Both the position numbers and the translations under genes were made by a program. The notes beneath the pieces were generated by a model, which saw only the letters and a program-made list of their open reading frames with translations, was not told the DNA's origin and searched no databases. DNA of 63,484 nucleotides, counting the filler, from Licmophora abbreviata (taxonomy: Eukaryota), in NCBI GenBank assembly GCA_900291995.1. It is 9 parts of 9 records of this genome, joined end to end, with 100 filler letters (N's around TTAATTAATTAA, not from the genome) between each part and the next. Parts side by side here need not be neighbours in the genome. Positions count along the whole stretch, not along the records: positions 1 to 12,953 come from OLMU01004827.1; 8 more parts are not named here. One strand, given 5' to 3'. This document shows, in pieces, positions 1 to 51,091 of this stretch (positions are counted from its first letter, which is position 1; each line of letters starts with the position of its first letter).

Positions 1-499
1 GGCGGAGCATCGTCGAGGGAAAAGAGCCCGCAGTTAGGGAAAATACCTCAGCGTTTTCAAGCCACGAGGGACGACGCACTTATCAGATCAACCAAGAATT
101 CAGCCGGAGAGGCCAAGTCGCCAACGACTACCGTCGAAGAAATAACAAAGCGCGCAGATACACCATCTAAAGCTCCAACCTTGCGGGAATGGAAGGTAAA
201 CAAGAATAGAACTCTTCAGGGGGTAGTAGAGGGGTCACGCATTTACGAGAACGGAACTGATGTGTCAACATCGCCGTTGGCGGCCGGTGAAGAAGCTGAA
301 GAAGGGTCTGTAGTGACGACAACGACTGGATCCAAGTGAGTTGTTCACATTTTTATCTTGCTGCGATTTCTACGTAAGACTAGTGCAGTGCGTTGACGAT
401 TCCTAACTCTTTGTGCGTTTCTTGCGCAATCACAGGTACTTCCTGGGCAGGAAGACACCTCCAGCAGGTCTCACTTGGCTGTTCAATCTTTTTGATTGA
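1..499 (+). CDS. 3' end of a hypothetical protein with a ~55-aa repeat domain; paralog of the gene at 675..2407
   Basis: Translates ...PTLREWKVNKNRTLQGVVEGSRIYENGTDVSTSPLAAGEEAEEGSVVTTTTGSK, then a GT-AG intron at 336..435, then YFLGRKTPPAGLTWLFNLFD* (TGA 497-499). The 5' end lies outside the window. Confidence 0.8.
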
Positions 500-674
500 T
501 TGGAAACCTTAAATGCTACAGATGGCAGTAGGGAGTACACAAACGTAAACGGGGTTTAACTTTTTGAGTGTTCATTAGTGTAGTTGCATTTGCTTGTTCT
601 TCAAGTTGTCTGGGCAGGTTTACGCTCTATGTGTCCGTGTGTAATTGCCTCCTCATTGACCAATTATGGTCTGT

Positions 675-2407
675 CTAGTTTTTAAATGCTGAAAACGACG
701 TCCCAAATAAGCCGAACAGGCCTCCGTCTCCTTTCTTGTCATCTAGGTAGTACCTGAAGATGATTCAACGCGCAAACGAATGATTGTTTCAGAATCTCAA
801 GGAAGAGAAGCTGAAACCCGCGCCAGACTATGCACACCATCGAATGCTTACCGTGATCCTGTCTCGGTCGTCACAATAGCCTTCACGATAGCCTTGCCAG
901 TGATTGGCGAGGTAGTCACGGCTTCGCCTTCCTCGAAATTGGAGGATCCCGTTATCAAACCGGATACAGATCCATCCGTGTTTTGCTTCCACTTTGTAAG
1001 AATGGGGAGTCCTCGGGGAGGCGACGAAACGGGCTCCGGAGGCTTCGGTTTTCCTCTTGATGCAGCACCGAACCCAGACGCTCCGCCGAGAAGGGCGGCC
1101 AAGCTGAACGTAGCACGCGGCTTTGCCTCCTTTAGACTATCCATCGCCTCCCGAGCACGTTTGGCTGCTTCCCGCATTTTTTCTGCCTCTTCACGTTTCT
1201 CCTCGGCTGCCGGCACCGATTTGCTCTCTTTCTTAGGATTGCGCGGTGGTGTGACTGTTTTTCCATCTGTGATTCCTCCGAAAAGCATCCCCAGTAGATC
1301 CAGGACGGGTGCCTTCTCTGGGGCTCTTGCTCCAAGATAGTACCTCGTTCCCGAAGCCGTTTCAATCATCCCACCTTCAATTGCTTCTTGTCGAACTACT
1401 GCCGTGGTTACTGTCTCTCCGTTTTCAAACTTATCGTTCATGTTTCCTGCTATCATGCCGGTGACACTACCGTTCGCATTCTGCCGCCAGTTCTCCAAAG
1501 TGGGAATGTCAGAAACACCACGCTTCGCCGAGTCCAATAGCTTGCTGGGAAGGTCGACAATGTCCTTGACTTTCCGTTGCGCGGCTTCGGAAAGCTTGGC
1601 AGGGAGACCAACAATCTCATTGGCGGTTTCCTTCGCTTTCTGCTGTGCCGTCTCGCCAATTTTCGATGGCATGCCCTTGACATCGTCTACAGTCGTTTCC
1701 ACTTGTCGCGATACCACGACCTTGGCACTGTTGACACTTCCTTCTAGAATTTCTGATAAGGCTCCTCCTAAAGACCTCATCCCCTTTTCAACAACTTCGT
1801 TGACTCCTTCCAAAGCCGCTTCCTTCCGCCGACGCGCTTCTTCTTCCTTCTCCAATCGCGCCACCATCGCATCAACCTCAGCCTTGACAGAATCTTCCTC
1901 GCGCTGTCTCGATATGTCTGCTTCCTCTGCTTCGGATTCATTCACTACTTCCACGGCCGATTCCTTACTACGACGCGCTTCTTCCCTCGCCTCCCGCCTG
2001 GCGTCTCGTTCGGCCTGCCGTTCAGCTTGCCGTTCTCGGGCCAACCTGGCATCCACCTCGGCCTTCACATCTTCCTCGCGTCGCTGGGGAGGTTCTTCTA
2101 AATCAGCAACGAGCGGTTGTACATCCACAGGATCGCTCTCTGGCGCTTCCACTGGCTCTACGGTCGGCTCCTCAGACGCTTCAGCATCCTTCCCCTTGCT
2201 CAGTGCTTCCTCTGCTACTCGTAGCGCTTCATCCGCCTCTGCCAGAATGTCATCAATGTTGAACTCCTTCTCTTCGATGCGCTTGGCTGCCTGAAGCGGG
2301 TCGACACGAGCACCCCGTGGTAGCACCGAGGCACGTGGACGCTGCAGAAAGGCGTCAACGACTAGCAAATTGATAAGCAGTAGTACGGCAACGGATCCGA
2401 ATTTCAT
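675..2407 (-). CDS. Probable plastid-targeted protein: coiled-coil/LEA-like N-half plus two copies of a ~55-aa repeat domain
   Basis: Starts MKFGSVAVLLLINLLVVDAF (signal peptide + AF). Charged helical region, then repeats PTLENWRQNANGSVTG...ETASGTRYYLG and PILTKWKQNTDGSVSG...TTETGSR/YYL. Intron 754..851; last exon ends FKN* at 675. Confidence 0.8.
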
Positions 2408-2966
2408 CGGCGACATGATCGAAAGTGAAGCGTTTCTCGCGAACCGGGGTGGCTGCTGTTCCAAAATGGGATCACTGGCGACTACAAGAGGCAGTCTGAA
2501 AGACACAAATGCGACGTAGGTCTACAGGAACGAAACACACAAGATCGCTTTGCCCAAACTTCAAACCTTGAACTTCCTCGCAAGACACGACTCCCCCGCG
2601 GGTCGGTCAATCCTATTTCATACTTGTGCGCATCTTTTGGTCTACACAAATTCAATGGAACAGATGGGGAGTTTTGATGTCAACAAGATATTAGAGACGA
2701 TTTGAATCCGTACTGAGGTAAGTCTACACCGTTGTCACCTGCTTGCTAGACTGCCCGACTGTAGACCAACAGTAATCGACACGTCTCAGCGGGGACGGTA
2801 ACATCAATGCGTCGCTCGCCGCCAGACTAGATAAGATGCTCGAACCTGGTATGCGAATTTCATACCGTGTGTAGATTGCTAATCCTACACTAAATTTTCG
2901 CTATCGAATTACTCCAGTATGAGGCAGTATGACAAACCGGTACTACCAAATGGAAAGTGATCGCAA

Positions 2967-4178
2967 TCATGTGCAGTTGGGTGCCGTGTATTCCGTTGCA
3001 TCAATTGGCACTACTTTCACCGAGATTGTTCTTCTTCCGTAGTCCCAGCAGGAGTTCCTGTATCTTCGCCTGTTGACAAGCTTCCTTCGCATCCAGTACT
3101 CCATGTAATACCGGGTCGCCTCGAGAACAAACTCGCTGTCGTGCTTAATGAACTCGGGCATTTCCTTTTCTCCGTTCATTTCGATCTCCTCGATTTCCTT
3201 CTCGAGTTCTGTCTTCGTGTTTTCGATACTCTGTCGCGCGTTCAGCTGAATCTGATGGATTTCGGCTCTCTTGAGAGCCATCTCATCTCTGAACTTCTGC
3301 TGCTTAGTAGCGAGTTCAGTTTTCTTCTTCGCTGCCTCCACATCCTTCTTTGCGTCATCGTCAAGCTCCTTTGCGATTTCACCTTTCTGTTTTACCTCCA
3401 GTTCATCCACTTCCTTCATCGACTTCGTGTCGTCTCTAGCAAGCTTCGCCATCTCCTTGCCCAATTGGGCTTGCAGGCGTCTCAAATCCACTTTCCTTGT
3501 CTTCTTTTCAGTAGTAAGCTTCGCATTGAGTTTCACTGTCTCAAGCTTCAACTCTCGTTCAAGCAGCTCGACATCTTGTTGAAGTTGAAAGTTCTCCATG
3601 TCGTGATCCTCAATGAGCTGGGCAATTTTCTGTTTGATGGATTCCAACTTTTCCTTCTCAGCAGTGCCGGCTCCAACGGAGTTGGCGGGGTTTGTAACTT
3701 CGTCGGACTCGATGTAGCAGAGACGTAGGTCCCCACCAGCCTTGACCACGATTTGAGAGTCTGCGACTGACCCGCACACATCGCTACTGGCATCGGCCCC
3801 TTTGGCATCGAACCCACTATCGCCCACTTCGTTGTTTGCGTACCATTCAGAGGTACTGGCGAGGGCGCCGAGGTACCGTTGTGCTGTGCTCCTGATCTCG
3901 TCGATTTTATAACCCTGACAATACTGAGTCGTTGGAAAGTCTACATCGATCCTGTAGTAAACATCGGCCGCAAAGGCTTTGGCCGCCTCGCCGTATCCTT
4001 TCTCTCGCAAGAGTGTTTCACAGTTCACCGAGGTGCCAAGGAAGCGCGTATGCGTCTCTTCTAGGATGCTAGCTGGAGGACCTTCTTCAGCGCCTCGCAA
4101 GGTGGCGGAGACCGTCCAGCTACCCACTGTGCATAAGATGATGGTCAAAAGAAGGGACGGCTGGGACCTTTTCGTCAT
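2967..4178 (-). CDS. Secreted six-Cys/coiled-coil protein, paralog A
   Basis: 403-aa intronless ORF with signal peptide, RFL motif, YYRIDVD motif, LCY, a long E/K-rich coiled coil and C-terminal C..VKVVPID..C. Confidence 0.8.
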   Translation of the reverse strand: MTKRSQPSLLLTIILCTVGSWTVSATLRGAEEGPPASILEETHTRFLGTSVNCETLLREKGYGEAAKAFAADVYYRIDVDFPTTQYCQGYKIDEIRSTAQRYLGALASTSEWYANNEVGDSGFDAKGADASSDVCGSVADSQIVVKAGGDLRLCYIESDEVTNPANSVGAGTAEKEKLESIKQKIAQLIEDHDMENFQLQQDVELLERELKLETVKLNAKLTTEKKTRKVDLRRLQAQLGKEMAKLARDDTKSMKEVDELEVKQKGEIAKELDDDAKKDVEAAKKKTELATKQQKFRDEMALKRAEIHQIQLNARQSIENTKTELEKEIEEIEMNGEKEMPEFIKHDSEFVLEATRYYMEYWMRRKLVNRRRYRNSCWDYGRRTISVKVVPIDATEYTAPNCT

Positions 4179-4478
4179 CGTGATCAGGCAACAATCGTTC
4201 GAGAATTGACGTGAATTGTGAGGTCATTCGTGAACACTTTCGTTTGTTGGGCCATGTATTTATTGTAGGGCATATTTAAGCCAATGACTATAATATATTT
4301 ATATGATCTGGGCAGAATTGATCTGAATATGTACAGTCTTTACTATGCCAGTCATAGATCAGAGCATAATGACCACATGATTTATGCCCGCATTCACGCT
4401 TTGATTCTCTATAATTTTGGGCTGGTTGTCAAGGCCCAAAAGAGCGAAAAGGTCAAAATACCGTTTCGAATATTAACC

Positions 4479-5636
4479 ATGACGAAAGTCCTTCTCTTTC
4501 TCCTGACCCTCTTGTCCTATCGCCTCCCCTCACACGTCGAAGCCTTCAATGAGGTGGCATTCGATGAGAAATGTGAGGGCAATGAAGAGGCTGAAGGCTT
4601 CTTCTACAAGGCGCAGATAGACATCGATGTGGTCGGTTCATGCTCCAACATGAATCATCTTCTTTCCATGTTCAAGGCAGTGTACGAAGCCATTGGACGC
4701 TCCACCGAGGAGACAGCGGCTCTTACTTCGGACGATGTCACGATCTACGCTGACAAGGTAACGCTGGACCCTGCGTTTTGTAGTGAGCCGGTTATCGACG
4801 GTGGTGAACGTCGCCGTCTGAGTCCAGCCACCACGGCATCTAAATGGAGCTTTCAGGGTGGCGGCGAAGGTGTGCTCTGCTACCCCAAGGTGACTATTTC
4901 AGATATCCCCAACTATGAGGAGCGGGCCGCGGCGCTAGAAAAGGAAATCGAGGAAGCCCAAGAGGCCCAATCTCAATCACGTCGGCTACTTCATCTTCAG
5001 CAAGGTGAAGTTGTCACCGAAATGGATCTTGAAGAGGACGATATCCAAGCAAAGATTGATATCGAGCGTCTTGACTTCGAAGTTGAAAAAGAAGAGATGG
5101 ACTTGAAGATATTTATGGCACTGAGGAAAGCGCATAGGGACCATGGCCGCAACTTGCCCAAGGAGGTCAAAGAGCAGCTAGAAGAAGATGAAACAAGCTG
5201 GAAAAGTGAACTCGAAGCTCAGCAAGAAGAAATGAATGAGCGACACCGAAAGTGGCGGAGGGCCCTTAGACAGTTGCTTGCAAACCAGAACGCGCCAGTG
5301 GAAAACGAGACGGAAGAATTCGAGAGTGATTGGCTGGAGAAGGTTCACTACTTTGATATCACTCGTGCCAAGCTTCAATTTGACCATTTGCAGGCGCAGC
5401 TTCTGATGAAGGACGAAAACTTGGCCAAGGAGCAACTAGCCTTAGCCAATGTGGACTTCTATTGGATACTGAACGCCTACCGAAAAAGCATCCTCCAAAA
5501 GGTGAACGAAGATCTATCGAATCTATGGACGCAATACGGCGGAGAGTGTTTCGATGAAAAGCCGACAGTAATGGAGCTCAAGTTGACTCCGGTCCCAACT
5601 GTAGACGAAGCAAAGCCAGCATGCGATGGCATTTGA
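4479..5636 (+). CDS. Secreted six-Cys/coiled-coil protein, paralog B
   Basis: Likely start MTKVLLFLLTLLS at 4479 (signal peptide). Motifs FYKAQIDIDVVGSC, RRRL, WSFQGGG..LCYP, coiled coil, C..KPTVMELKLTPV..EAKPAC. Confidence 0.82.
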   Translation: MTKVLLFLLTLLSYRLPSHVEAFNEVAFDEKCEGNEEAEGFFYKAQIDIDVVGSCSNMNHLLSMFKAVYEAIGRSTEETAALTSDDVTIYADKVTLDPAFCSEPVIDGGERRRLSPATTASKWSFQGGGEGVLCYPKVTISDIPNYEERAAALEKEIEEAQEAQSQSRRLLHLQQGEVVTEMDLEEDDIQAKIDIERLDFEVEKEEMDLKIFMALRKAHRDHGRNLPKEVKEQLEEDETSWKSELEAQQEEMNERHRKWRRALRQLLANQNAPVENETEEFESDWLEKVHYFDITRAKLQFDHLQAQLLMKDENLAKEQLALANVDFYWILNAYRKSILQKVNEDLSNLWTQYGGECFDEKPTVMELKLTPVPTVDEAKPACDGI

Positions 5637-6739
5637 TCGGGTGCCCTTTTTCGGGGAAAATAGAACAGGTGCATGTACCTTCGGGTCCTTGGAACCTCGC
5701 TTTCGCAACTCCCGCACTCTGCCTCTGCAACCAAGAGTAGCAGTGAGTAGTTAATCTGGTAGGTAGCTTTTTTAAGTTGACCAACATAGGGCACGTTCAA
5801 CGAGGAAGTAGTTCTTTTCAGTAGATGATCACACCGAACTTGCACGCAAACACTGTCTGCTGCTATGTCGTCGAACGGTTGTAGACTACTGGTACCAGAG
5901 GCGAAACCGATTCTAACATCTGCCAGATAACTTGTACCAGTACAGTTGCGAAGACGAAACCCAGACATTCAGGCGCGTAATGGGGCTAACGCCGTGATGA
6001 GAGCTCTACCCGAAATGACTGATTCAAGACTCAGTCTAGAGTCCCATCGCGCTCTCAGTGCCATAAACCTACAGTAGTCTAATATCACCGATATTCCGAG
6101 TCCTTTCACGGCCACAACTAATGAGTCCCCACGAGCCAGTGTGATACCTCTAGCTACCATTACATAGTTTTAAGAGGGTCGTTCTACATTCAACACACAT
6201 CGCTACTACATGTACCTCAAATCACCTTTCATCCTCATTGAAATAAGCGCACAGGTTCCACTGAGCTGCGAGCACATACTGCTCATTCTTCAATACAGTG
6301 TTTGCAATAGCGTCCTTCTCCTCTTTACTGAAATCATTTTCGCCTCTATGTTTCAAGTACTCGACCACAACAATCTTACGGGCGAAATTGGCAATGCCTT
6401 CCTCTTCTTACTCTGCTGTCATCATGAATTCCTTTACAAAAGCCAATCCTTAAGGATTCCGATTGGGGATGTCTTCTACAAATTGAACAAACCAATCCAG
6501 ATAAAAATCAGGTCTGCCGGTTTTCTTCCTCCTGTCCAGCCATGCAACAAAGACCCAGACGTACGCAAGAGCTGGTAGCTTCGAAGTCTTGTAATAAAGG
6601 GCTATTGCCAGATCCAAGGCACTCGCAGTTTCAAGATAAGACGCCGCAAGCTCCTGGGTCACCTTTTGTGGGTCTCGGTGTTTGTGGCGGTAGGTATTGT
6701 ATCTATTCGGCATAGTGGGAGCGCTTGTCTGATTTGCCC

Positions 6740-7775
6740 CGTACTTCTTTTTCCAGTAGCAAATCATTCTCACTTCGATTGACTGTCGCGGCTTGGCATT
6801 GCCGCTTGCATCCGGATCGAACACACCTGCATGAAATGCAGACCTCGAGACTTTGGAAAAGTCGCTATCATACATTTTGATGAGAAGTGCTTCCTCTTTC
6901 TCCATCTTTGGAAAGTAGTATCACTTGTAGTTACTCGCGTGGCGAGCTGACAATGCAATGTGCTCGATGCTCTTGCCTTCTTTTGTAATCAAGTCTCATA
7001 AGACATAATCGTCGGGCTTTACAGTGGAGCTATCATCAAGCACCGCCAAATGGTTGTTTTCGATTGGGTCATCGACAAAATATTCCGCCAGAGATTGAAA
7101 GACAGGTACGTCGAGTGGACCATTGGCGTACTTGATCGCTTCTCCATCGGCAGTCGCAGGTGATCGGTCAATTTGTGGGTTTCCCAATATGTAGTCGTCC
7201 ACTCCCGGTTGAGTGTCGTCTCTCGCCTGATTTCGCACGACAGGAGGAGCGAAAGTGACTACGTCGTCGCATCCAAGTTTTCTCTCAAGTTTTCTCTTGA
7301 CGAATGACTCTGACTCCACCTCTTCCTGGTACCTGGATGTCAAATTGGAATCTCCCTCTGCCAGCTTGAAGAATTCTTCCGTCGATAGGTTTGTAGGAAC
7401 GGAAGGAACGAGTTCAAAGCCAGCCTCGTCCAGAGTGAGTTCCGGATTTCCGCGGCCGTTGCAGACGGGCGTCGGAGCAACGGCCCCCGCGTCGACCCGA
7501 TTGTCCATAAGGATGGATTTCTGGCGTTCAACCTCGGATCGCGGACGTTCGTAGAGATAGTGGCGCGTCAAATCATTGACTAGATAACGCATACGGACAT
7601 CAATACAGTCCTCGGCGCATTCCTTGTCGTGTCCGCTGGCAGCATCCTTACCAACAGACTCGGATGCCACATCATCAGTCAACGAGAAGAGAAGCAGGAT
7701 AACGAAGACGACGAGAGAGATATGACAGCATGGTGTCTTGACCTTCGGCAGCTTCCTCAAGACGGACCTTTTCAT
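6740..7775 (-). pseudogene. Disrupted AsaB/CmcJ-NvfI-like Fe(II)/2-oxoglutarate oxygenase
   Basis: Family motifs NGR..LTLDEAGFELV, YYFPKMEKEEALLIKMYDS and AFHAGVFDP..PRQSIEVR. In-frame TGA at 6996-6998 and 6921-6923 (K*YY in place of KWYY). YLSFNLWRNI sits in a shifted frame near 7075-7110. The expected HxD reads PQID. The 3' boundary is approximate. Confidence 0.8.
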
Positions 7776-8384
7776 GGCTGTTGGTGCACTCTGATGAAAC
7801 CAAAAAGGATACCTGGTACCGGTACACACATCAGTGAAGTACCGGTACCGGTAGTCTATGATACTGATGATGACTGAAGAAGCACTCGCATCGGCGGCAA
7901 ATGATGTTTTGTGCAGTCGTTTTCGCTTTGTACCAACTGTATGTACCTGGTAAATTGGCGGGGTCCTCTGATGAGTTAGATTGAGGAAGCCAACCGGAAA
8001 AGCCGGAAAAGAGTGCCGCGAGCCGCGAGAGCGAATCTTGAAATCGGGAGAGCGAGAAAAAGAATACGTAGAGTACTAGTACGTTGTACTTCGTATACAT
8101 TTATTTAGAATGGTTTATCTACATATACGTGAGTAAAAATACATATTTTAAATTTTGACACTGCAGTACAATAGCACGCAAACAGCCCAGTCTTGGTTCA
8201 GCATATATCATGATAGAAGTAATTATCGGTAGATGACTAATGACTCCTTCAATGTCCTGAGGCTTAAACAGTTGTCGAAAAGGGCATAAACACGAACAAG
8301 GTAACAAAGGCCCTTGGAATCGTGAATTTATATCGCCGCGGTCCAGTCACAAAATCACAGCTTTTTGAGTTTTTGTTCACCACG

Positions 8385-10046
8385 ATGGTCCGAAAGCTGG
8401 TCTTCCTTGCACTGTTGCTCTTTCTTGGATGTCGTCCAGGCGCTTGCTTATACTTGAGACGACACCTGAGTTCTGATAGCTCGGGGAGTTCCGGAAGTGG
8501 CTCTGGGAGCTCCGAGAGCAGCTCGGGGAGTTCCGGAAGCGGTTCTGGGAGCAGTGAGGGCTCTGGAAGTTACGAAGACTCTGGGAGTAACGAGGTCTCT
8601 GGAACTTACGAGGACGCTGAGAGCGTTGAGGATCTCGAAGGCTCGGATGGGGGAGCTGGGACTGTGGAAAGCCCAGGCTCCCCTGATAACGGTACCCCTG
8701 ACAACGGTACCCCTGAAAAAGGCACCCCTGACAAAGGTACCCCTGACAACGGTACCCCTGAAAAAGGTACCCCTGACAAAGGTACCCCTGACAACGGTAC
8801 CCCTGACAACGGTACCTCTGACAACAACACTCCTGCAATCGAGACCCCTGACAACAGCAGCAGCGACAAAGAGGACGGTGAGGCACTTAACTTCAATCTT
8901 TACAACGCTTTCTGCAAAGATGACGAGATGCAAGAGCAGCATTACTTCAAAGTTGATATTGATGTCGATCTTCGTGGTACATGCGGTCGAAGTTCCGAGA
9001 CTGAATGGGTTAGAGATATGCTTCAAAGTACTTTCCGAAGTTTGGCTTTCCAAACGGCGTTTGGATGGGTTCTCTACGGCCAAGGTCTTCAGGCAAGGAA
9101 TGTGCAGTTGGGTACTGAGATCTGCGAGGCACCTCTCGAACTGAATAACCGACGAGATCTGTGGTGGAGAAAAAAGTGGGCAGCACCCAGTGAGACCTTC
9201 ACAAACGGGGTGACAAACCCAGTAGACAAATTTTGGACATTCCAAGGCAGCGGAATGAATTTATTCTGCTATCCAGAGTTCAAGAAGCAGAACCAGGCTG
9301 TTGAACACAATGACCGACCTGACTTTGAGTCGAAGCTTACTCGAATGGATGAAGTCATCTCGCAGATTTTGGCGCAACATGAGGAAAAGCAACGTAAGAT
9401 GACGACGAAGCACGACGAATTCACTGCGGCATTGAAGTTTGAGATGGACGCGCTGATGGTCACGATCAAGAACGATGCTGCCCTCGAAACCGTTGCAGCA
9501 CAGAATCTAGAGTCAGCGATTGAACAAGAGCGCGTTGCACTTCGGGCAGTTCATGGTCAATCTCTTCCATCGGGCGTTCAGCAAGTCTTAGAGGCCGAAG
9601 AGAGTAAGCTACGGGCCGATTTTGAACTGGAACGGACCCAGAGGAAAGAGGTGCATGAACAATGGGTGTCGGAGTTGAGACGCCAGCAACGAGGAACATT
9701 AAGTGGACTAGAGACGGAAGCCAAGGACCTTCAGAGGGAGCTTGAAAATCAGAGTCGCCTTCTTGACATCCAGAGGGGTAAGCTGCAAACCGAACGGGAT
9801 CAATGGGAATATCTAAGGGATCAAAAGAATCGAGACAATGAGGAACGACAAATCTCCCATGAAGACTTTTACTTGGCTCTAGATAAGCTCGAGAGAGATG
9901 CCAAGGAAAAGGCTGAGCGGGAGATTGGAAAAGTGTGGGACGCGTACAGAGAGGTTGGATTGTGTGCGGACGACGAACCAGTCATAAGCCGCATAGATCT
10001 GACTCCCGTCCAGAGCGCAGAAGAGGCCAATAGGATATGTGGATAA
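8385..10046 (+). CDS. Secreted six-Cys/coiled-coil protein, paralog C, with Ser/Gly-rich and PDNGT-repeat N-terminal extension
   Basis: Starts MVRKLVFLALLLFLG. RRHL, SG-rich tract, pentapeptide repeats, YFKVDIDVDLRGTC, RRDL, WTFQGSG..FCYP, coiled coil, C..EPVISRIDLTPV..EEANRIC. Confidence 0.85.
   Translation: MVRKLVFLALLLFLGCRPGACLYLRRHLSSDSSGSSGSGSGSSESSSGSSGSGSGSSEGSGSYEDSGSNEVSGTYEDAESVEDLEGSDGGAGTVESPGSPDNGTPDNGTPEKGTPDKGTPDNGTPEKGTPDKGTPDNGTPDNGTSDNNTPAIETPDNSSSDKEDGEALNFNLYNAFCKDDEMQEQHYFKVDIDVDLRGTCGRSSETEWVRDMLQSTFRSLAFQTAFGWVLYGQGLQARNVQLGTEICEAPLELNNRRDLWWRKKWAAPSETFTNGVTNPVDKFWTFQGSGMNLFCYPEFKKQNQAVEHNDRPDFESKLTRMDEVISQILAQHEEKQRKMTTKHDEFTAALKFEMDALMVTIKNDAALETVAAQNLESAIEQERVALRAVHGQSLPSGVQQVLEAEESKLRADFELERTQRKEVHEQWVSELRRQQRGTLSGLETEAKDLQRELENQSRLLDIQRGKLQTERDQWEYLRDQKNRDNEERQISHEDFYLALDKLERDAKEKAEREIGKVWDAYREVGLCADDEPVISRIDLTPVQSAEEANRICG
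8682..8861 (+). repeat. Coding 15-bp minisatellite (consensus CCTGACAACGGTACC; PDNGT/PEKGT/PDKGT)
   Basis: Nine near-perfect units at 8682..8816 followed by three degenerate units. Confidence 0.95.
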
Positions 10047-10637
10047 TTAGTACGAAACTCGCTATTTTTCAAGCAATTAGTGAACCAATGTATTGTACCA
10101 GCCGCCATCGTGATGTAGACTGGTGGCCGTGTTGAGAACTATATTGAAGGTGGATCATAGTAGCTAGCTGTACCTCGATGGTCGTCGAGGCCCAAGCCCG
10201 AGTGCGGAAGCAAAGTCACTTCATTAGGATCCACCCAGCCTTTCAACTTTGGGTCTAGAAACCCATGAAGCGAACGGGGTGAGAACGGTACACGGGCTTT
10301 GGGGAGTCATGGATTCATCTAGTAGAGGGTTATGACCTAGCGAAATGGATGGAGGGAACAGATGCCAGTTCTTCTATAGTACATGGCAGAGTTGGGCATT
10401 GAGTAACAGTAATGGTCGAATGAGTCGTGTCAGTCACAATTTGTTTTAGATAAATATATATGTGCTGTAGTAACGGTATCATAATGTAGGTATAGAAAGG
10501 ATGACCCTTTCGATGACTGCCCACATTCTGACATAAATGCGTAACAGAATGTCTGTAACCCCATGCAACTTCGATCTCATCTGACCAACGAAAGAGCATA
10601 CTATTCTAAGCTATCACTGTCAAAGAAGAGTCAATCA

Positions 10638-12953
10638 ATGGAATCGCCCCCATCCCCCTCAAGGACCACCCCAGCTATCGATGCAGTTCCTAGTGGACGT
10701 GACGAGGAGGGAGGAGCCGACGAAGTGAGCATCGCCTCCTCCACATTCTCAGAACCTTTCCCTGTCGCATCGGCCCTAGCGTCTACATCCGACGATGAAG
10801 TCGGGGCAAACACTGAAGCAGCGGACGCGCAGATGACGGTTGGTCAGGCGCGCTGGGCTCACTATGCCTCTTCGAACCCGAACGGATCGGAGGGCGACGA
10901 CGACGATGACTTCAGCGCGGTCGACTCTGTGGCATCAACGTTCTCCACCCCAACGGTAGCAGCTTCTCAGTCGAATGACCTCCCATTGAAGCTCAGTCGT
11001 CGCAATCCTGGACAGGGTCAGCGGTCTGTCGGATCCTTGCGACCAATTGACGAGGATAACGTCGCGGCGACGCCTGGAGCCCACCCAGAGGCGAGTTCCA
11101 ATGTCCAGCAGATGCTGGAGCGAAAGTTTGGAGTACCTGAAACGGAAGAAAGTAGCAATCAAGAAGACGAGGCAGTGCCCCGTGATCTGCAAAGCCTACT
11201 TGAGCGCAAGTTTGAAGAGTTTGACGACGTTGAAGAGTCTAAGCACGACGACGATGATAACTCGGCCGCCACCGAGCAAGTCTCCAACACACGTCCGAGC
11301 GTGGCGTCAACTGCTCAGCCAGTTTCCTCCCGCTCGTTCCAGAGCACCAACTCGTCTGCAGGTGAATCTGTTGAGTCGTCAGAGCGCTCTGGGTACCTCC
11401 AAGAGAACCGTGCCCCTATTGCTCTTACTCGTACAAATCGACGTCGCTCTACGCACGCCATTCTAGGGAACCAAGCCTTGGACGACCAGGGCCGTACGCT
11501 TTCCCCGACTGAGCTCAAGGAACTCTGGGCCAAGACAGGCATGTGTACCGAATGCGGTCGTGTCAAGACACACGAGAAGGTTAAGGTTGGCCTCTTCTGG
11601 GCATTTCGTAGGATGGTACCACTGACGACTCGAGGACAAGCATACAAGGGATACTGTCTTTTCTGCTACGACGTTGAAGACTTGAGGCGTCTCTTGAATG
11701 AGCCTGGTCTCAAAGAAGAGGACGTTCCTCGCGCAGCTACAGCGATGATGCTTTTGCGCAACACGTCCGTGCGCAACCTCAACACAGGCGGTGGCGGCAC
11801 CGCCGCACTTCAAACACGCCGTGCTTCCAATGTGGCTCTTCGAAGGCAATCTATTCAAGACGTGCAAGAGGCCTCCGTTGCCGTGGCATCACTAGATACT
11901 GATCCCTCCGAGCAAGACAAGTCTTTCCGGTCCCTGCTAACTAACTGGAAAATTCTCCTTGGTCTCGGCATCTTTCTGATGCTTCTTATTGGCGTAGTAA
12001 TTGGGGCCGTGCTGGTTCTCGGGGGAGGTGACAGTCAACCAGCGACGAACCCTCCTGGGACCCGACCGCCCACTTTCCCTCCGACACCAGCCCCCACCCC
12101 ACCGCCCATCGCATCTTCTCTATTCTGGCAACAGACGGGTGCTGATATTGCTGGAGTGGCTGAGAGCTTTGGTCACATTTTATCGCTCTCCCAGTATGGC
12201 AAACGAATGGCGGTCTCGTCGCCAAATGCTGTCGGCGGTGGCCGAGTCGACGTCTACGAGCAAACCACCGTTGATGAGCGCGAAGAGTGGCTGCCTCTGG
12301 GCGATCCCATTTTTGGGTGGCAGATGGAGAGCTGGCTGGATTTGGAATGGCCCTGTCGTCAGATGGAACTACACTTATCGTGGGATATCCCGGGTCCGAA
12401 AGAGGACATGTGCGTGTCTTTCGCTTCTCCGAGGCTAGTCTCTCCTGGCTCCCGTTGGGCGAAACACTCTACGGTCTGGTTTACGATAGTGAATTTGGCT
12501 ATTCTGTCGATCTCAATTACGATGGCAGTGTCATTGCCATCGGAGCCCCCAAGCATATTGACGACAGCAATCCCTTCGACATCACCACTCCCGGCATGGT
12601 CCAAACCTTCCGACTTCATGCCGAAGATTTAGTGTACGTTCGCCAAGGCCAGGAGTACCTCATTGGTGAGGGCGATGGAGACATGTTCGGCGCATCGGTC
12701 AAGATTGACAACAATGGGAACTTCATGGCAGTTGGAGCCCCTGGTAGCGACGAACGGCTCGAGGACGGTGGCCAAGTGCACTTGTGGACGTATATTCCCG
12801 ACGAGTGGCTCGAGCCCTTGAACTTTCCGCTCGTCGGCAGGAACACGGGTGATCGGCTTGGCACCAGTGTCTCACTGGATGGCGCTGGATATACAGTGGT
12901 GTCCAGTGCCGTCGATGCCGAAGTCTATGGCGTTCCAGGAGCCGGCGACATAT
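10638..12953 (+). CDS. Type II membrane protein with cytosolic Cys/His motif and extracellular FG-GAP (integrin-alpha-like) propeller; frameshifted and cut off at the gap
   Basis: Acidic disordered N-terminus, CTECGRVKTH...YKGYCLFC, TM helix (ILLGLGIFLMLLIGVVIGAVLVLG), Pro-rich linker, then repeats FGHILSLS..GKRMAV, FGMALSSDG..LIVGYP, FGYSVDL..IAIGAP, FGASV..MAVGAP. Frame changes at ~12315. Confidence 0.75.
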
Positions 12954-13053
12954 NNNNNNNNNNNNNNNNNNNNNNNNNNNNNNNNNNNNNNNNNNNNTTA
13001 ATTAATTAANNNNNNNNNNNNNNNNNNNNNNNNNNNNNNNNNNNNNNNNNNNN
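12954..13053. other. Artificial assembly spacer
   Basis: 44 N + TTAATTAATTAA (stop codons in all six frames) + 44 N. Confidence 0.98.
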
Positions 13054-31486: not shown

Positions 31487-32470
31487 ATGCCCGTTACAAC
31501 CAGGAGCGCCTCGAAAAAGGCAAGGGAATCTTTCGTGAGACACGCTCCTCCTCCCTGGCATTCGGTCGCTGTGTTTGGACTCATGATGGCCATCTTTACG
31601 AAATTGCTTCCAACTTTGGACTCTCTGGACCACATTGCGACCACCGAGACCTTTACGAAGCGCTTGTTTCCCGATTTGATCTCTCTGCGCACGCTAGTCT
31701 ACATCCGAGCTCTTTTCTTTGTGGGCATGCTGGTACTTCAGCTGCATACAGTCTTCATCGGCGTTGGCTGGGTTCAAATCACCACCTACATGGAAACCAG
31801 CAAGCTCAAGCGTCACGTGTCTCTCACCATGACGGGCATCCGAACCATGATGCCCTTTACATCGTGGGCTTGGAATCTACTCATGACTAGCTTTGGAGTC
31901 TCCGCCTGGATCAGCTGGAAGGCACTCCAACCAGAAGGCGCCCTTGTTCCGCAATATGTACTTCGCGCCGGTGTCTTACTCTTTGAAATGAGTGCTCCCA
32001 CCGCCTTGCTCGTAGCCTTCGTGGTGCGGTACGGAATTTGGCCGCAAGTTTTAAAGAGCGGCAAGGGAGATAATCCCACGGAGGCTCTCAAACAATCTCG
32101 TACCTTGGCGTGGCATAACTTGAACGTGGTCATGGCCCTGTGTGAACTCGCACTACTGGGAGGTCTGCCTGTTCGGTACATGGATTTAAGCATGTCTGCG
32201 TTCTTTGGCATGGCCTATATTTTGTTCACGTGGGCAACCATGCACTATTGGAGTCCGTTGGAAGGTCCTCACTTCTTGTACTTTTTCTTCGATACGACCT
32301 TGGGAAAGACTACGACAATTGCGTTGTTGGTCCTGCTGCTTGTGTTGCTGGTGTTTTACGGTCTGTTTTGTGTGTTGCATCAAATTTTGGATCATCTGGG
32401 TGGTGGGCCGGTGGTACATGGACTAGCAGTAGTACTCATTTCGAGTGCGGTGTGCCGATTTCGAGACTAG
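31487..32470 (+). CDS. Multi-pass membrane protein, FAR-17a/AIG1- or rolling-stone-like; paralog 1
   Basis: Multiple hydrophobic segments; PFTSWAW, WHNLN, FLYFFFD; strong similarity to 50096..51091. Confidence 0.7.
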   Translation: MPVTTRSASKKARESFVRHAPPPWHSVAVFGLMMAIFTKLLPTLDSLDHIATTETFTKRLFPDLISLRTLVYIRALFFVGMLVLQLHTVFIGVGWVQITTYMETSKLKRHVSLTMTGIRTMMPFTSWAWNLLMTSFGVSAWISWKALQPEGALVPQYVLRAGVLLFEMSAPTALLVAFVVRYGIWPQVLKSGKGDNPTEALKQSRTLAWHNLNVVMALCELALLGGLPVRYMDLSMSAFFGMAYILFTWATMHYWSPLEGPHFLYFFFDTTLGKTTTIALLVLLLVLLVFYGLFCVLHQILDHLGGGPVVHGLAVVLISSAVCRFRD

Positions 32471-32499: not shown

Positions 32500-33702
32500 T
32501 CACTTCCACACGATCTGATTTCGCTTTAATTGATCGCGATTCAGATTCGTGTAGTGACAGGCAATGCTTCTGTAGTGACGTTGGAGGTACTGGTTCCCTT
32601 TGACCATGGCTCGGTCTCGTTTCTTTTTCTTCTCGGGCGATGCCATGGTTCCATGCCCTCCCACGCCGTGCGTGTAGTTCGAGTAAAACAATCCCACCTG
32701 CCAGCCATTCGCCCATGCGCGAGCACTGTATTCCATATCGAACATAACGCCAGGGTCCCCCGGTTGGGTGTAGAGCTCACTCAGAGGACCAATGTCATGG
32801 TAGCACTCTTTCCTCACCACCATCGGAGAAGAGGCGATTCCCATGACGAACTGAAAGGGAGCTCCACTGCATGTATGACGAACCTTGGTCTTGCTGCCTT
32901 CATTGTAAGATGGCTCTTCCACATACAGTTCCTTCAAATACTCTTGTCCCCTTAGTACACTACGACCGTTGTAGTGATACCACCCAATGTAGCCACCCAA
33001 TACGCAGAGTCTCGGAAACTGCTCGAAGAGTTGAATGGCACGCAGTGCCCATGGATCATTTACGTCATTGAGCACGTCGTCGTCCTGCATCAGAGCATAG
33101 TATTGAATCTCAGGATGGTCACGACTCAGCTGTTCCATCCCGAAATTGTAGTTTCGAATCTCGTGATTGTCAGGAGAAGAATACAAACTTCCGGCAATGG
33201 AGTTCTGGTAGTGTCGGAATGCGTCCAGAAAGGTCTGTTGACTTCCATCGGTGGATGCATCATCGTAAACAAGAACCTGCTGTATAGCTGGTGCCTGTGT
33301 GGCTAGACTTCCAATAACACTAAACGCAACAGACTGATGGTTGTAGCTCTGGACAATTGCTCCCATGCTCCCTTCATGACCAATCGCGTCCAAAAGGGGT
33401 GGCTTGGAACATGCCTTTGCAATTGTGTCCTTGTGGACATAGGCCCTGCTATTTGTACTGTTGGACAATACGATTTCACAAGTGAAGCTCTTGCTTCCAG
33501 TTGTATAGGTCGCCGTGCTCTTGAGCTGACGATGCGTCCGAGCGTTGGAATCGAAAGGTCGGGTATGCGACGCATCATTCGAAATGAGGCTCCTTTTTGC
33601 CGTCACCGCGAACAAGAAGACCAGACAGATGGCCAGAAAGGCACCCAGTGCTACCCAGGAGCGTTCAAAGGCCATCGTAGAGGGGAAACCCAACGAAAAC
33701 AC
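32500..33702 (-). CDS. GT2-family (GT-A fold) glycosyltransferase, type II membrane; paralog 1
   Basis: N-terminal TM helix, RQL, AIVQSYNH, VYDDASTDGS, ALMQDDD, DMEYSARAW. Confidence 0.85.
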   Translation of the reverse strand: MFSLGFPSTMAFERSWVALGAFLAICLVFLFAVTAKRSLISNDASHTRPFDSNARTHRQLKSTATYTTGSKSFTCEIVLSNSTNSRAYVHKDTIAKACSKPPLLDAIGHEGSMGAIVQSYNHQSVAFSVIGSLATQAPAIQQVLVYDDASTDGSQQTFLDAFRHYQNSIAGSLYSSPDNHEIRNYNFGMEQLSRDHPEIQYYALMQDDDVLNDVNDPWALRAIQLFEQFPRLCVLGGYIGWYHYNGRSVLRGQEYLKELYVEEPSYNEGSKTKVRHTCSGAPFQFVMGIASSPMVVRKECYHDIGPLSELYTQPGDPGVMFDMEYSARAWANGWQVGLFYSNYTHGVGGHGTMASPEKKKKRDRAMVKGNQYLQRHYRSIACHYTNLNRDQLKRNQIVWK

Positions 33703-37190: not shown

Positions 37191-38356
37191 TTAGAAGAAG
37201 TTTTCTAGCTGATCTAGATCCATGTTTGTGTAATGACAAGCAAGGCTTTTGAAGTGATCCTTGACATACTTGTTCCCCCTGTGCGCGGCCCGAATTCGTG
37301 CCTTTCGTTTCTCAGGCGATGACATTGTTCCGTGCCCACCAACGCCGTGTGTGTAGTTCGAATAAAACAATCCCACTTGCCAGCCGCTCCCCCAAGCGCG
37401 GGTGCTGTATTCAATATCAAACATGATTCCAGGCTCTCCTGGCTCTGTATACATCTCACTCAAGGGACCAATGTCTTCATAGCAAGCTTTTCGGATAATC
37501 ATGGGAGACGATGCGACTCCCATGGTGAACTGAAAGGGCATCCCGTGGCAGGTATTGTGAACCTTGGAGTGGTTGGCGCGATTGTATGACTTTTCTTCCA
37601 CGTAGTTTTCATGCAAACTTAGCCGCCCCTCGCTGATGTGTTGCCATCCAATGTAACCGCCAAGCACACAGAGCTTGGGGAACTCTTCAAATAGCTGGAT
37701 CGCTCGGAGAGCCCACGGGTCGCCTCCTTCTCGCAAGATATCGTCATCCTGCATCAGAGCATAGTACTGAACATTTGGCTTTTCTCGATAGAGACGTTCC
37801 ATTCCCAGATTGTAGTTTCGAATCTCGTGAATGTTGGGCGACGGAAACAAGCGTCCGTCGATGGTGTCCTTGTGAAATTGGAAAGCTTGTTGAAAGGTTC
37901 GTCTACTTCCATCCGTTGATCCGTCGTCATAAGTCAGAACATCCCGTAATGCCGGTGACTGTGTTGCCAGACTCGAAACCACTTGAAATGCCACGCTCTG
38001 GTGATTGAAACTTTGAATAATTGCCGCCATGACTCCGTTACGTCCTGCCCCACCATCCAAAAGTGGCGGTCGGGAACATGCCTCAGCGATTTCGCTCTTG
38101 TCGATAAAGGCTCGCTGACCGTGTCGTTTGCGAATCTCACCTCACAAGTGTAACTCTTTTCTCTACTACCATGAATGGGCTCGCCGTCAGCTTTGAAGAC
38201 GAATTGAAGCGCACGGGAGGCGGACTCTGCTGGATCGAATCTGGAGGAAAGCATGCCACCGTAGGTCTTGGTTTTCGCAAGGCCCACAAAAGCCACTCCG
38301 AAGAGAGCAAGTAGTAGAGGCAGACTAATGCGTCTTATGCGTTGATGTGCATTCAT
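37191..38356 (-). CDS. GT2-family glycosyltransferase paralog 2 (one-base frameshift at ~38115)
   Basis: Starts MNAHQRIRRISLPLLLALFG. After the frameshift, RAFIDKSEIAEACSRPPLLD aligns to RAYVHKDTIAKACSKPPLLD of paralog 1. TYDDGSTDGS and ALMQDDD present. Confidence 0.82.
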
Positions 38357-48336: not shown

Positions 48337-49891
48337 ATGGCGGATGCCGGTGATACCCATACGGCATCGCTTCCCACTAGAATGCTGCTGGCAAAGGTGC
48401 AGGTGCCAAGGCAGCGGCGACGACGACAGGCTGCTCGTCGCCTTGGTATCGTCATCTCAATAGCGTCCCTTCTTCTTTCGACGATAGTCTCACTTTTCAC
48501 TTTCAAGCCAGTAGAGAATGTCATTCACTCTTATATTTCCCTTGGAGTGGTGGAATTTGTGTCTGACAACAATCGCTGGTTCAAGAGCGAGGAATCTGGC
48601 ATACTTCGTAGGGAACTTGAGACCCGGCGCGCTGAAAGGAGCCTTGCCATCGACAAAAAGCTGAACCACACAACAGAAAACTCAACAGATGTATGCGTAC
48701 CGTGGAGCATGAACACGGACAAATGGTGGGGACAAAATCCCGAATGGGACGTTTACAAGACCACAGCTGAGAGCATCTGCTTTTTCAAGGAGGATACGTC
48801 GAAAACGCGTTTCTTTCGCGAGCTGTATGAGCTTCAAAATGGGGATTGCTCNNNNNNNNNNNNNNNNNNNNNNNNNNNNNNNNNNNNNNNNNNNNTTAAT
48901 TAATTAANNNNNNNNNNNNNNNNNNNNNNNNNNNNNNNNNNNNNNNNNNNNAAAAGGGACGTACAGCGTTCTCATCTTTCTCGTTCTCGCAATTGTCGTA
49001 AGCAGGTGGGACAGTGGTTTCAACGCAGACATGCATAACGTCATGGATGGCTTGGCGTATGGGCTGGAGCAGAGGAGGCCGTTTCAGATCGATTTTGAAC
49101 CGACACATTCTACGGTGTGGCACTATGCGGCACTTAAGGATGGCAGCAAACCAGTTTGTCAAACAAAGGATATGTTTTGCTTCTTTCTCCCTCTTGGCCA
49201 GTGCGAGCCCGGAACCATTGACAAGGAGGCGTTCCGTTCAGAGACGTTGGATAGAAACGGATTGCAGAGGAGACGTTGGCTCGTCGACTATGTAGCTAGA
49301 CCGCAGCAATGGTTGCGTCGTCGCGTTTACGAGTATTTGAGAGACAAGGCACCATCGATTGGCCAGTCAACCGTTGTGATGCACGTCCGTCGCAGTGACG
49401 TCGTCCTGCATCTCGACTGGTCACGAAAGTACTATGCTATCGAGGATTATTTGACACGTCTCCGCGAAGAGAATATCCATGCAAAGAGCATCTTCCTTCT
49501 CACTGATGATGCGAATGCAATCGACGAAGCTTTGGAATTCCATCCTGAGTACAATTGGCTATTCTTGAATAGGACACGACATCGCGGGGCAGAAGGTGGT
49601 TGGGAGAATCAGCTTCCGTCGAAGGATCCTATTCAAGAAATGGTGACTCTGCTGGCTACATTCAGTCTTGTCAAGCAGTGCGACACGATCGTTCATGGGG
49701 AGAGTGGTTTTGCAGACACCTTGTTGTTTCATATGGAAGCCACTGGAAAGAAAATTACGAATCTTCGTGTCGAAGAGAACATGGATCTGGACGAAGTGCT
49801 GAGCAAGAACAACACCGAATCCGTGGAAGCATTAGCACAAAGGTTGGAGGAGCGACGAAAAGCAAAGACAGAAGCGAAAGCAGCACAATAG
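48337..49891 (+). CDS. GT23-like (alpha-1,6-fucosyltransferase-like, GT-B) glycosyltransferase; paralog 1, spans a gap
   Basis: TM helix, CVPWSMNTDKWW..PEW, then after the gap SGFNAD, MHVRRSDVV and IFLLTDD, resembling the FUT8/NodZ HxRRxD and xxTDD motifs. Confidence 0.75.
48852..48951. other. Artificial assembly spacer (inside the GT23-like gene)
   Basis: 44 N + TTAATTAATTAA + 44 N. Confidence 0.98.
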
Positions 49892-50095: not shown

Positions 50096-51091
50096 CTAGT
50101 CTCGAACTCGGCATACTGTACTCGAAATGAGCACTACCGCCAGTGCATGTACAGCTGGCCCACCACCTAGATGATCTAGAATCTGATGAATAGCGCAGAA
50201 GAGGCCGTAAAAGGAAATCAAGACGATCAACAGCACTACGAGGGCAATCGACGTTGTCCAGCCCAAAGTAGTATCAAAAAAGAAATACAAGAACTGCGGT
50301 CCTTCTGGGGGTGGCGCCCAGCAGTGCATAAAAGCCCAGGTAAACAAGATGTAAATCAAGCCATACAATGCCGACACGCTCAAGTCAACATATCGAACGG
50401 GCAAGCCTCCCAAAAGACTGACTTCGGTGAGCGCAAAAATGCAATTGGCGTTGTGCCATAGCAAGGCGCGAGGCGTCTTCAGTGCAGAAGTAGGATTTTC
50501 TTTGTCTCCTTTACCACTTGCTAGCACTTGCGGCCAAATACCATAGCGTACGACAAAAGCAACCAGAAGTGCGGTTGGAGCAGACGCTTCAAACAGCAGA
50601 ATGCCTGCTCGTAGAAGCCAGTTCGGTACCTCCTGTGACACGAGTGCCTTATAACCAATCAACGCGTTCACTCCAAAGCTCGTCGAGAGCAAACTCCAAG
50701 CCCAAGAGGTAAATGGTAAGAGTATCCGAAATCCTGACAAGGAAACCTTGACGTTTCGTTTCAGTTTGGATTGAGGCAAATAAGCAGGAACGACAGGCGG
50801 TCGATCCGTGTCACAGATTGCATAAACCTGTGTTCCCACCATGAAAACGAAAACAAGTGCACGAACATATACAAGAGTGCGCAGCGAGATCAAGTGGGGA
50901 AACAGACGGTTTGTAAAGCTCTCAAGCGTAGCGACATGGTCCAGGGACTCAACGCGTGGGAGGGAATTTGTAAACGCAGCAGTCATGATGCCCACGAGAG
51001 CGATTGCATGCCATGGTGGAGGAGCGTACTTGACATGTTGCAGTTTTTGCTCTGCATGCTTTCTGGTGGAACTCCTTGTGGTAACAGCCAT
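50096..51091 (-). CDS. Multi-pass membrane protein, FAR-17a/AIG1- or rolling-stone-like; paralog 2
   Basis: Colinear with 31487..32470: VTTRS, APPPWH, PFTSWAW, LLVAFVVRYGIWPQVL, WHNAN, FLYFFFDTTLG, CR.RD. Confidence 0.7.
   Translation of the reverse strand: MAVTTRSSTRKHAEQKLQHVKYAPPPWHAIALVGIMTAAFTNSLPRVESLDHVATLESFTNRLFPHLISLRTLVYVRALVFVFMVGTQVYAICDTDRPPVVPAYLPQSKLKRNVKVSLSGFRILLPFTSWAWSLLSTSFGVNALIGYKALVSQEVPNWLLRAGILLFEASAPTALLVAFVVRYGIWPQVLASGKGDKENPTSALKTPRALLWHNANCIFALTEVSLLGGLPVRYVDLSVSALYGLIYILFTWAFMHCWAPPPEGPQFLYFFFDTTLGWTTSIALVVLLIVLISFYGLFCAIHQILDHLGGGPAVHALAVVLISSTVCRVRD

What the first reader, a model, noticed from the sequence alone, without database searches (positions are those of the whole stretch)
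2967..10046. Cluster of three secreted paralogs: a six-cysteine domain split by a long inserted coiled coil, possibly an undescribed extracellular structural system
Seen: three intronless genes within 7 kb (2967-4178 -, 4479-5636 +, 8385-10046 +); A and B are head-to-head 300 bp apart. Each has a signal peptide, RxL motif(s) and exactly six Cys in the mature part at equivalent positions. Four Cys precede the coiled coil (C1..(Y/F)xxxIDVD..C2..C3..[L/F]C4Y) and two follow it (C5..V..(L/V)(T/V)P(V/I)..C6 at the C-terminus). The coiled coil is ~160-200 aa, charged, and has no hydrophobic segment. B and C share a central helix break (HGRNLP / HGQSLP). Established: RxL sites are processing motifs in diatom wall proteins such as silaffins and silacidins. 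Inference: the N- and C-terminal halves fold into one disulfide-stapled domain (nested C1-C6, C2-C5, C3-C4) that projects an antiparallel helical hairpin. The three co-located, divergent chains may hetero-oligomerise into a fibre, adhesive or wall scaffold. I recognise no named family for this architecture.
Basis: partly seen in the sequence, partly recalled or inferred. Interest (0 to 1): 0.75.

Follow-up and report, generated by a model that had tools for sequence, protein, structure and literature searches.

The report
Diatom secreted fixed-length rod proteins
Three neighbouring diatom genes encode related secreted proteins of no named family, each predicted to be a small disulfide-bearing head carrying a helical rod of nearly constant length (about 11-12 nm), which looks like a building block or spacer outside the cell, although what it builds is not shown.

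Summary
Genes A, B and C are intact, signal-peptide-bearing ORFs with six mature cysteines each. B and C are clear paralogs (E 2e-31); A is a distant member (hhalign probability 93.7). No Pfam, NCBIfam or PDB-sequence family fits. A profile search of 1.84 billion representatives found only four relatives, with the same layout; one is a syntenic copy of C in a second diatom.

In two AlphaFold models of B the halves co-fold into one ferredoxin-like (SEA/S6-like) domain. A ~165-residue antiparallel hairpin is inserted after strand 3.

Two points are new. The Cys4-Cys5 spacing is 223-232 residues in 8 of 8 sequences, while identity falls to 12-36%. An RxL site sits in the strand 2-3 loop in 6 of 7 distinct proteins (A lacks it), the loop where animal SEA domains are cut.

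Hetero-oligomer, localisation and co-expression remain untested inferences. Best reading: a fast-evolving extracellular rod or spacer family whose fixed length reflects side-by-side assembly. An MRP1-like recognition role and a silica-wall scaffold role are the main rivals.

The parts
2967..4178 (-). Gene A, 403 aa; most divergent member; signal peptide, short pro-region, six Cys, rod; no RxL in the strand 2-3 loop (Cys3-Cys4 only 19 aa apart)
3717..4022 (-). A: N-terminal half of the head (Cys1 to Cys4)
   Evidence: Cys positions; N-half profile match
2973..3050 (-). A: C-terminal closing strand of the head (Cys5 to Cys6)
4179..4478 (.). 300-bp AT-rich (39% GC) divergent intergenic region shared by A and B; putative bidirectional promoter (inference)
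4479..5636 (+). Gene B, 385 aa; the member that was modelled
4479..4544 (+). B: predicted signal peptide (by hydropathy and by eye)
   Evidence: P0001 starts at the same place
4572..4880 (+). B: N-terminal half of the ferredoxin-like head (Cys1, strand 1, Cys2, helix 1, strand 2, Cys3, loop, strand 3, Cys4)
4809..4820 (+). B: RRRL in the strand 2-3 loop; candidate processing site
   Evidence: positional conservation
4914..5402 (+). B: antiparallel helical hairpin (77 + 81 residues, about 11-12 nm) with the HGRNLP turn at 5142-5159
   Evidence: (block pLDDT 85-95)
5412..5624 (+). B: return helix, Cys5, strand 4 and Cys6, closing the head
8385..10046 (+). Gene C, 553 aa; has a syntenic counterpart in a second diatom (L058:9418-10801)
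8460..8468 (+). C: N-terminal RxL just after the signal peptide, also present in the L058 counterpart
8472..8678 (+). C: acidic Ser/Gly-rich tract (38% S, 25% G, 20% D+E); absent from the L058 counterpart
8680..8855 (+). C: 11.7 copies of a 15-bp (5-aa) repeat carrying N-glycosylation sequons; absent from the L058 counterpart
8913..9269 (+). C: N-terminal half of the head (Cys1-Cys4), with RxL at 9153-9161 in the strand 2-3 loop
9963..10040 (+). C: closing strand of the head (Cys5-Cys6)

Best explanation
A, B and C are old, fast-diverging paralogs of a small diatom family of secretory-pathway proteins built as a head plus a rod. SHOWN IN SEQUENCE: signal peptide, six conserved Cys, a rod of constant length, and an RxL in a length-variable loop. 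SHOWN IN MODELS ONLY (B): the N-half (strand 1, helix 1, strands 2-3) and the C-tail (helix 2, strand 4) interleave into one ferredoxin-like, SEA/S6-like plate. A ~165-residue antiparallel helical hairpin about 11-12 nm long (77 residues at 1.5 A per residue, textbook rise) projects from the strand 3 to helix 2 connection. INFERRED: after export the RxL pro-peptide is removed and the strand 2-3 loop is nicked at RxL, the loop where MUC1, Notch-2 and GPR126 SEA domains are cut. The two pieces stay together through the interleaved sheet and disulfides that bridge the halves (Cys2-Cys5 is the best placed). INFERRED, weakest step: because the rod length is held while its sequence drifts, the rods pack side by side in register, as homo- or hetero-oligomers of A/B/C. 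They would form a bundle, ring or lattice that acts as a fixed-length spacer or scaffold in the extracellular matrix or wall. My odds: head-plus-hairpin architecture about 0.8; secreted about 0.85; loop processing about 0.55; structural spacer or scaffold role about 0.4; obligate A/B/C heteromer about 0.25.
Confidence: 0.4

Rival explanations
1. They are secreted recognition or signalling proteins of the sexual phase, working like Pseudo-nitzschia MRP1 (a secreted S6/SEA-like domain). The rod holds the head at a set distance or binds a receptor.
For: MRP1 is predicted S6-like/SEA-like (10.64898/2026.03.25.714164 passages), has a signal peptide and is under positive selection (PMC6261938 passages). 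The head here also aligns with S6. C diverges much faster than its neighbours.
Against: MRP1's reported element order differs and no long hairpin is described for it. No sequence comparison with MRP1 could be made. In the B/P0001 pair the head N-half is the most conserved part (72% against 36% in the rod), which is not the pattern of a rapidly diversifying recognition surface.
Confidence: 0.2
2. They are organic-matrix components of the silica deposition vesicle or frustule; RxL processing releases an acidic Ser-rich peptide from C, and the rods template nanoscale spacing.
For: Signal peptide + RXL + Ser-rich tract is the layout of SAPs and other biosilica proteins (PMC5647440, PMC5525289 passages). 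C has such a tract, 38% Ser.
Against: The tract is missing from A, B, P0001 and the syntenic copy of C. There is no transmembrane helix, which defines SAPs and Sin1. The rod is not silaffin-like in composition.
Confidence: 0.15
3. They are independently acting monomers or homo-oligomers; the cluster is only the trace of old local duplications and there is no three-gene system.
For: Local duplication explains clustering without function. An unrelated broken gene lies between B and C. Members are 12-36% identical in the rod. No further copies were found in the genome.
Against: All three frames are intact despite deep divergence; A and B share a 300-bp divergent region; rod lengths match across paralogs.
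Confidence: 0.2
4. They work like Wzz/Wzc polysaccharide co-polymerases: alpha/beta bases with long hairpins forming a bell that measures or guides secreted polysaccharide chains.
Against: High rmsd, E at least 0.04, 7-11% identity, and Z within the range the tool calls a common helical arrangement. The two flanking transmembrane helices of that family are absent.
Confidence: 0.06
5. They are membrane-active proteins whose hairpins form a channel, as in Tc-type or fusion-protein hairpins.
Against: The matches are long-helix superpositions with very high rmsd. There is no hydrophobic segment anywhere in the mature chains, the hairpin tip is polar, and the residues after the loop RxL are not a hydrophobic peptide.
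Confidence: 0.03

Closest known systems
SEA domain (MUC1, Notch-2 heterodimerisation domain, GPR126; Pfam PF01390, accession recalled)
   Same: Extracellular; ferredoxin-like alpha/beta plate; candidate protease site in the strand 2-3 loop, with the pieces expected to stay together (PMC6954182 passages).
   Different: No Pfam SEA hit; a ~165-residue hairpin is inserted after strand 3; six Cys bridge the halves; no membrane anchor. Works-like resemblance only.
Pseudo-nitzschia multistriata MRP1
   Same: Diatom, signal peptide, predicted S6/SEA-like fold, fast-evolving.
   Different: Different reported element order and no long hairpin described; homology could not be tested.
Wzz/Wzc polysaccharide co-polymerase periplasmic domain
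   Same: Alpha/beta base with a long inserted helical arm of about 10 nm.
   Different: Bacterial, two transmembrane helices, no such Cys set; superposition rmsd 8-23 A.
Diatom RXL-bearing biosilica proteins (silaffins, silacidins, SAPs, Sin1)
   Same: Signal peptide and RXL; Ser-rich acidic tract in C.
   Different: No transmembrane helix; Ser tract not conserved; folded head and coiled rod instead of random coil or NQ-rich domain.
Craspedostauros trail-protein DUF1/DUF2 and CaTrailin3 six-Cys repeats
   Same: Secreted diatom domains with six Cys (10.1101/2023.03.06.531300 passages and section 20).
   Different: They are repeats within giant PTS-rich or repeat proteins, and the main text never mentions a coiled coil (0 occurrences). 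Their sequences are in Table S6, which I did not see.
M20 peptidase dimerisation domain and ribosomal S6/S10
   Different: Intracellular, 4-14% identity; shared fold only.

Membership tests
SEA domain | Ferredoxin-like beta-alpha-beta-beta-alpha-beta plate | tested here: met
   Model element order and 41 of 50 rows spanning both halves; moderate model confidence
SEA domain | Match to the Pfam SEA profile | tested here: not met
   No SEA row for A, B, C at E<=1, for 6 N-halves at E<=10 or for P0001-P0004; divergent SEA domains can escape the profile (recalled)
SEA domain | Structural superposition on a solved SEA domain | tested here: inconclusive
   Only the top 50 rows are shown, and the head could not be folded alone
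SEA domain | Cleavage in the strand 2-3 loop with the pieces staying associated | not testable with these tools
   RxL is positioned there in 6 of 7 distinct proteins; cleavage itself needs experiment
MRP1 family | Sequence homology to MRP1 and mating-type-biased expression | not testable with these tools
   No tool supplied the MRP1 sequence; no expression data
Wzz/Wzc co-polymerases | Two transmembrane helices flanking the periplasmic domain | tested here: not met
   Best 19-residue hydropathy outside the signal peptide is at most 0.74
Wzz/Wzc co-polymerases | Alpha/beta base with a long helical arm | tested here: inconclusive
SAP / Sin1 silicalemma proteins | Transmembrane helix and cytosolic tail | tested here: not met
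   definitions
SAP / silacidin-type biosilica proteins | Signal peptide + RXL + Ser-rich tract | tested here: inconclusive
   Met in C only; tract absent in A, B, P0001 and the L058 copy
Diatom secreted GxCxxC SEA-like domain proteins (motif recalled; see also earlier finding e1-7503941) | Detectable homology of the head | tested here: inconclusive
   One candidate in the genome (L057) gave hhalign probability 0.1 against the N-half profile, as a single sequence; no profile of that family could be built
Trailin DUF1/DUF2 six-Cys domains | Sequence homology | not testable with these tools

The most novel reading that the evidence does not exclude
A, B and C are subunits of an undescribed diatom extracellular heteromer. 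SEA-like heads matured by RxL cleavage and locked by disulfides (possibly between chains, since three Cys fall at each end of the sheet) carry length-matched 11-12 nm hairpins that assemble into a ring or lattice. This would be a eukaryotic secreted molecular ruler that sets nanoscale spacing in wall, mucilage or a sexual-stage envelope.
Probability: 0.2. Interest if true: 0.78.

Novelty: new variant of a known kind. Interest (0 to 1): 0.5.

Why it matters
Diatom wall and mucilage proteins described in the papers I read are mostly disordered, repeat-rich or membrane-anchored. A folded secreted rod of fixed length would be a different kind of part and a candidate for setting nanometre distances. 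The position of RxL in the loop where animal SEA domains are cut also gives a compact, foldable substrate for finding the still unknown diatom RXL protease (PMC5525289 calls it 'yet unknown'). If the proteins turn out to be monomers of no linked function, the finding reduces to one more lineage-specific orphan family with an unusual domain insertion.

Tried and rejected
Family and sequence searches. Pfam and NCBIfam gave nothing near a curated cut-off for the family. The PDB sequence search gave only coiled or amphipathic helix noise, best E 0.064. Word-index searches: B gave 1 hit among 5588 candidates; A gave 0 among 8000 scored; the N-half profile against longer proteins returned 3 already known members among 8000 scored. 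ESM Atlas gave one weak 0.75 spondin cluster for B and nothing for the P0004 N-half; I rejected the spondin lead.

Structure searches. Foldseek against the PDB and viral models gave no match at E<=0.001. The wide VIA search was filled by helical bundles. No solved SEA domain was listed in the top 50 rows, which does not exclude one. Complex prediction of mature B with mature A returned no verdict (0.31, mark 0.34) and is not used either way.

Loci. Two metagenome scans found no confirmed locus (357 and 88 pattern matches), so the neighbourhood of P0001 is unknown. The genome holding L058 has no further family member, and L058 turns bacterial just upstream of the C-like gene, so A/B synteny could not be tested.

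Expression. No RNA holder was listed. One small-share run laid two short contigs on C and none on A or B, which is not evidence.

Short rod-less relatives in the own genome, sought with a recalled motif. Pattern 1 gave 67 matches against 44 control; 30 of 67 were fetched, and the 28 with an open motif scored at most 3.7 bits (two were read further and were chance frames). Pattern 2 gave 18 matches against 7 control; all 18 scored at most 1.3 bits on the N-half profiles. One (L057) looks like a real domain but shows no homology. A family-specific pattern found only B and C.

Tree. Only P0003+P0004 is supported.

Literature. Ten searches listed no paper describing this architecture; the library lacks most subscription papers. 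10.64898/2026.03.25.714157 (passages) held nothing relevant.

Earlier findings. Five of six look-ups were empty.

Rejected readings: pore-former (no hydrophobic segment); plastid protein (acidic post-signal region, conserved Cys); bacterial origin of P0002 (its contig is a bacterial-diatom join).
Full report
1. Observation. All lie on one contig, G000:C4827. Gene content (bipartite plastid-type leaders, recalled) points to a diatom. B's frame is open back to 4284, but homolog P0001 starts at the 4479 position and the extra stretch has non-coding-like GC. Each protein has a hydrophobic N-terminus, six mature Cys and no other hydrophobic segment. B and C are plain paralogs (E 2e-31). A is not significant pairwise against C and marginal against B. 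It is supported by hhalign (probability 93.7), by separate N-half and C-tail profiles (3 and 23 of 2000 global shuffles, 6 and 15 of 2000 local shuffles reach its scores; it is the best non-training frame among 477 window frames, tied for the C-tail) and by identical Cys spacing to B. Simple RxL counts are only modestly above chance.

2. The family. No Pfam, NCBIfam or PDB sequence family fits. An exhaustive profile search of 1.84 billion representatives returned four proteins, P0001-P0004; P0005 is a cluster mate of P0004. All keep the motifs around Cys2-Cys6 that their length covers, the rod and the turn. No further copy was found in the own genome, with the limits that tool states. P0002 was traced to locus L058. 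There a diatom segment carries a C-like gene with signal peptide, the same N-terminal RxL and all six Cys, followed by counterparts of the window's next four genes in the same order. The segment is joined to bacterial DNA just upstream of the start codon, so A and B cannot be checked. C is 29-33% identical to this copy, while the long matches of its neighbours are 57-87%: the family evolves fast. The tree supports only P0003+P0004.

4. First, the insert has a fixed length: Cys4-Cys5 is 223-232 in 8 of 8 sequences at 12-36% identity, whereas Cys3-Cys4 ranges from 19 to about 81 and the N-terminal extensions come and go. Second, the RxL that is conserved by position lies between strands 2 and 3 (B, C, P0001, P0003, P0004, L058 copy; A lacks it). 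That is the loop cut in MUC1, Notch-2 and GPR126 SEA domains, whose halves stay associated (PMC6954182, passages). RXL removal is reported for silaffins by an unknown protease (PMC5525289, passages), though PMC5647440 (passages) notes that the processing role remains to be proven in general.

5. Disulfides. In a ferredoxin-like sheet (order 2-3-1-4, textbook) Cys2, Cys3 and Cys5 fall at one end and Cys1, Cys4 and Cys6 at the other. Cys2-Cys5 and Cys1-Cys6 are plausible, but Cys3-Cys4 would join opposite ends of an antiparallel pair. Either a flexible terminal Cys crosses over (for example Cys1-Cys3 with Cys4-Cys6) or some bonds are between chains. This is inference from strand ranges; the tools gave no coordinates.

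6. How it most likely works. The protein is secreted, trimmed at the N-terminal RxL where present, nicked in the strand 2-3 loop, and held together by the interleaved sheet and disulfides. It presents a charged rod of about 11-12 nm whose hydrophobic period peaks at 3.54-3.68 in 12 of 14 segments (7 of 14 individually significant). Length conservation across very divergent paralogs, their clustering, the shared 300-bp divergent region and a weak excess of shared 7-mers upstream (32 against 14.9, not holding at k=9) are what in-register assembly would predict. I therefore favour a structural spacer or scaffold (0.4). None of this shows binding, place or time of expression, and a monomeric hairpin would also resist indels. 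Rivals: an MRP1-like recognition protein (MRP1 is predicted S6/SEA-like and is positively selected; passages; 0.2); unlinked duplicates (0.2); a silica-matrix protein (Ser-rich tract in C only; 0.15); a Wzz/Wzc-like ruler (similar base-plus-arm layout, rmsd 8-23 A, no membrane helices; 0.06); a pore former (0.03).

7. Comparison and novelty. It works like a SEA-type cleavable extracellular plate and is shaped like a Wzz protomer. It is not filed under either: the Pfam SEA profile and the transmembrane helices were tested and not met, and superposition on a solved SEA domain is inconclusive. An earlier, unchecked note of this scan (e1-7503941) describes another secreted diatom protein with SEA as closest known domain, so SEA-like heads may be a wider diatom theme. 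My attempts to link this family to such rod-less proteins in the own genome found no homology (only 30 of 67 matches of the first pattern were examined). Ten literature searches listed no description of this architecture. I read passages only, plus one section; I saw no supplements, and Table S6 of the trail-protein preprint (six-Cys DUFs) may bear on the novelty claim. Eukaryotic proteins may be thinly covered in the collections searched, so rarity is not established.

8. Verdict. A real, unnamed, fast-evolving diatom family with an unusual domain insertion, a length-conserved rod and a well-placed candidate processing site. It is a new variant of a known kind (extracellular ferredoxin/SEA-like domain protein). 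The system-level claim stays open. Interest 0.5; 0.78 if the length-matched heteromer (probability about 0.2) proves true.

Noticed in passing
L058:1-20798 (join near 9310-9410): The contig labelled as a Pirellulaceae genome is bacterial up to about 9310, ending in what looks like an integron integrase and cassette array (recognised from sequence, not tested). It then continues as about 11 kb of diatom genes in the same order as the window. Most likely an assembly chimera, so P0002 is not evidence of a bacterial member.
   Followed up: partly
L058:9418-10801: The C-like gene is in two reading frames, switching near 9945-9960 within a long Pro/Thr/Asp-rich loop; Cys3 and Cys4 are 244 nt apart. 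A sequencing indel or a real frameshift.
   Followed up: partly
window 6450-7775 (-): A CmcJ/NvfI-like oxidoreductase gene with an N-terminal hydrophobic stretch lies between B and C, interrupted by two in-frame stops; probably a pseudogene (NF041278 partial hit, E 1.4e-13, below cut-off).
   Followed up: partly
window 12954-13053 and seven further N gaps: The window is a scaffold of pieces separated by N runs, and only 1-12953 is on G000:C4827. L058 supports the order across the first gap: the genes I recognise as SufD-like, Myb-like and MTHFR (names recalled) follow in the same order.
   Followed up: partly
window 10563-12952 (+): The single-pass membrane protein gene downstream of C (repeats that look FG-GAP-like, name recalled) is in two frames here but one 850-aa ORF in L058: an intron or frameshift in this genome.
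   Followed up: no
L057:17-625 (-), G000:C7361: An ORF with a strand-helix-strand-strand-CxxC-helix-strand look, resembling the recalled diatom SEA-like domain; no Pfam hit above cut-off and no detectable homology to this family.
   Followed up: partly
P0003 N-terminus: It starts without a signal peptide, with an RxL followed by a Ser/Arg/Lys-rich tract; probably truncated at the 5' end. Its 1442-base contig and the 1475-1559-base contigs of P0004/P0005 are barely longer than the ORFs, as transcript assemblies would be (inference).
   Followed up: no
window 31487-32470 and 50096-51091; 32500-33675 and 37191-38030; 49031-49891 and 52116-53111: Three further pairs of apparent paralogs (membrane proteins and glycosyltransferase-like ORFs, by eye) lie elsewhere in the scaffold.
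   Followed up: no
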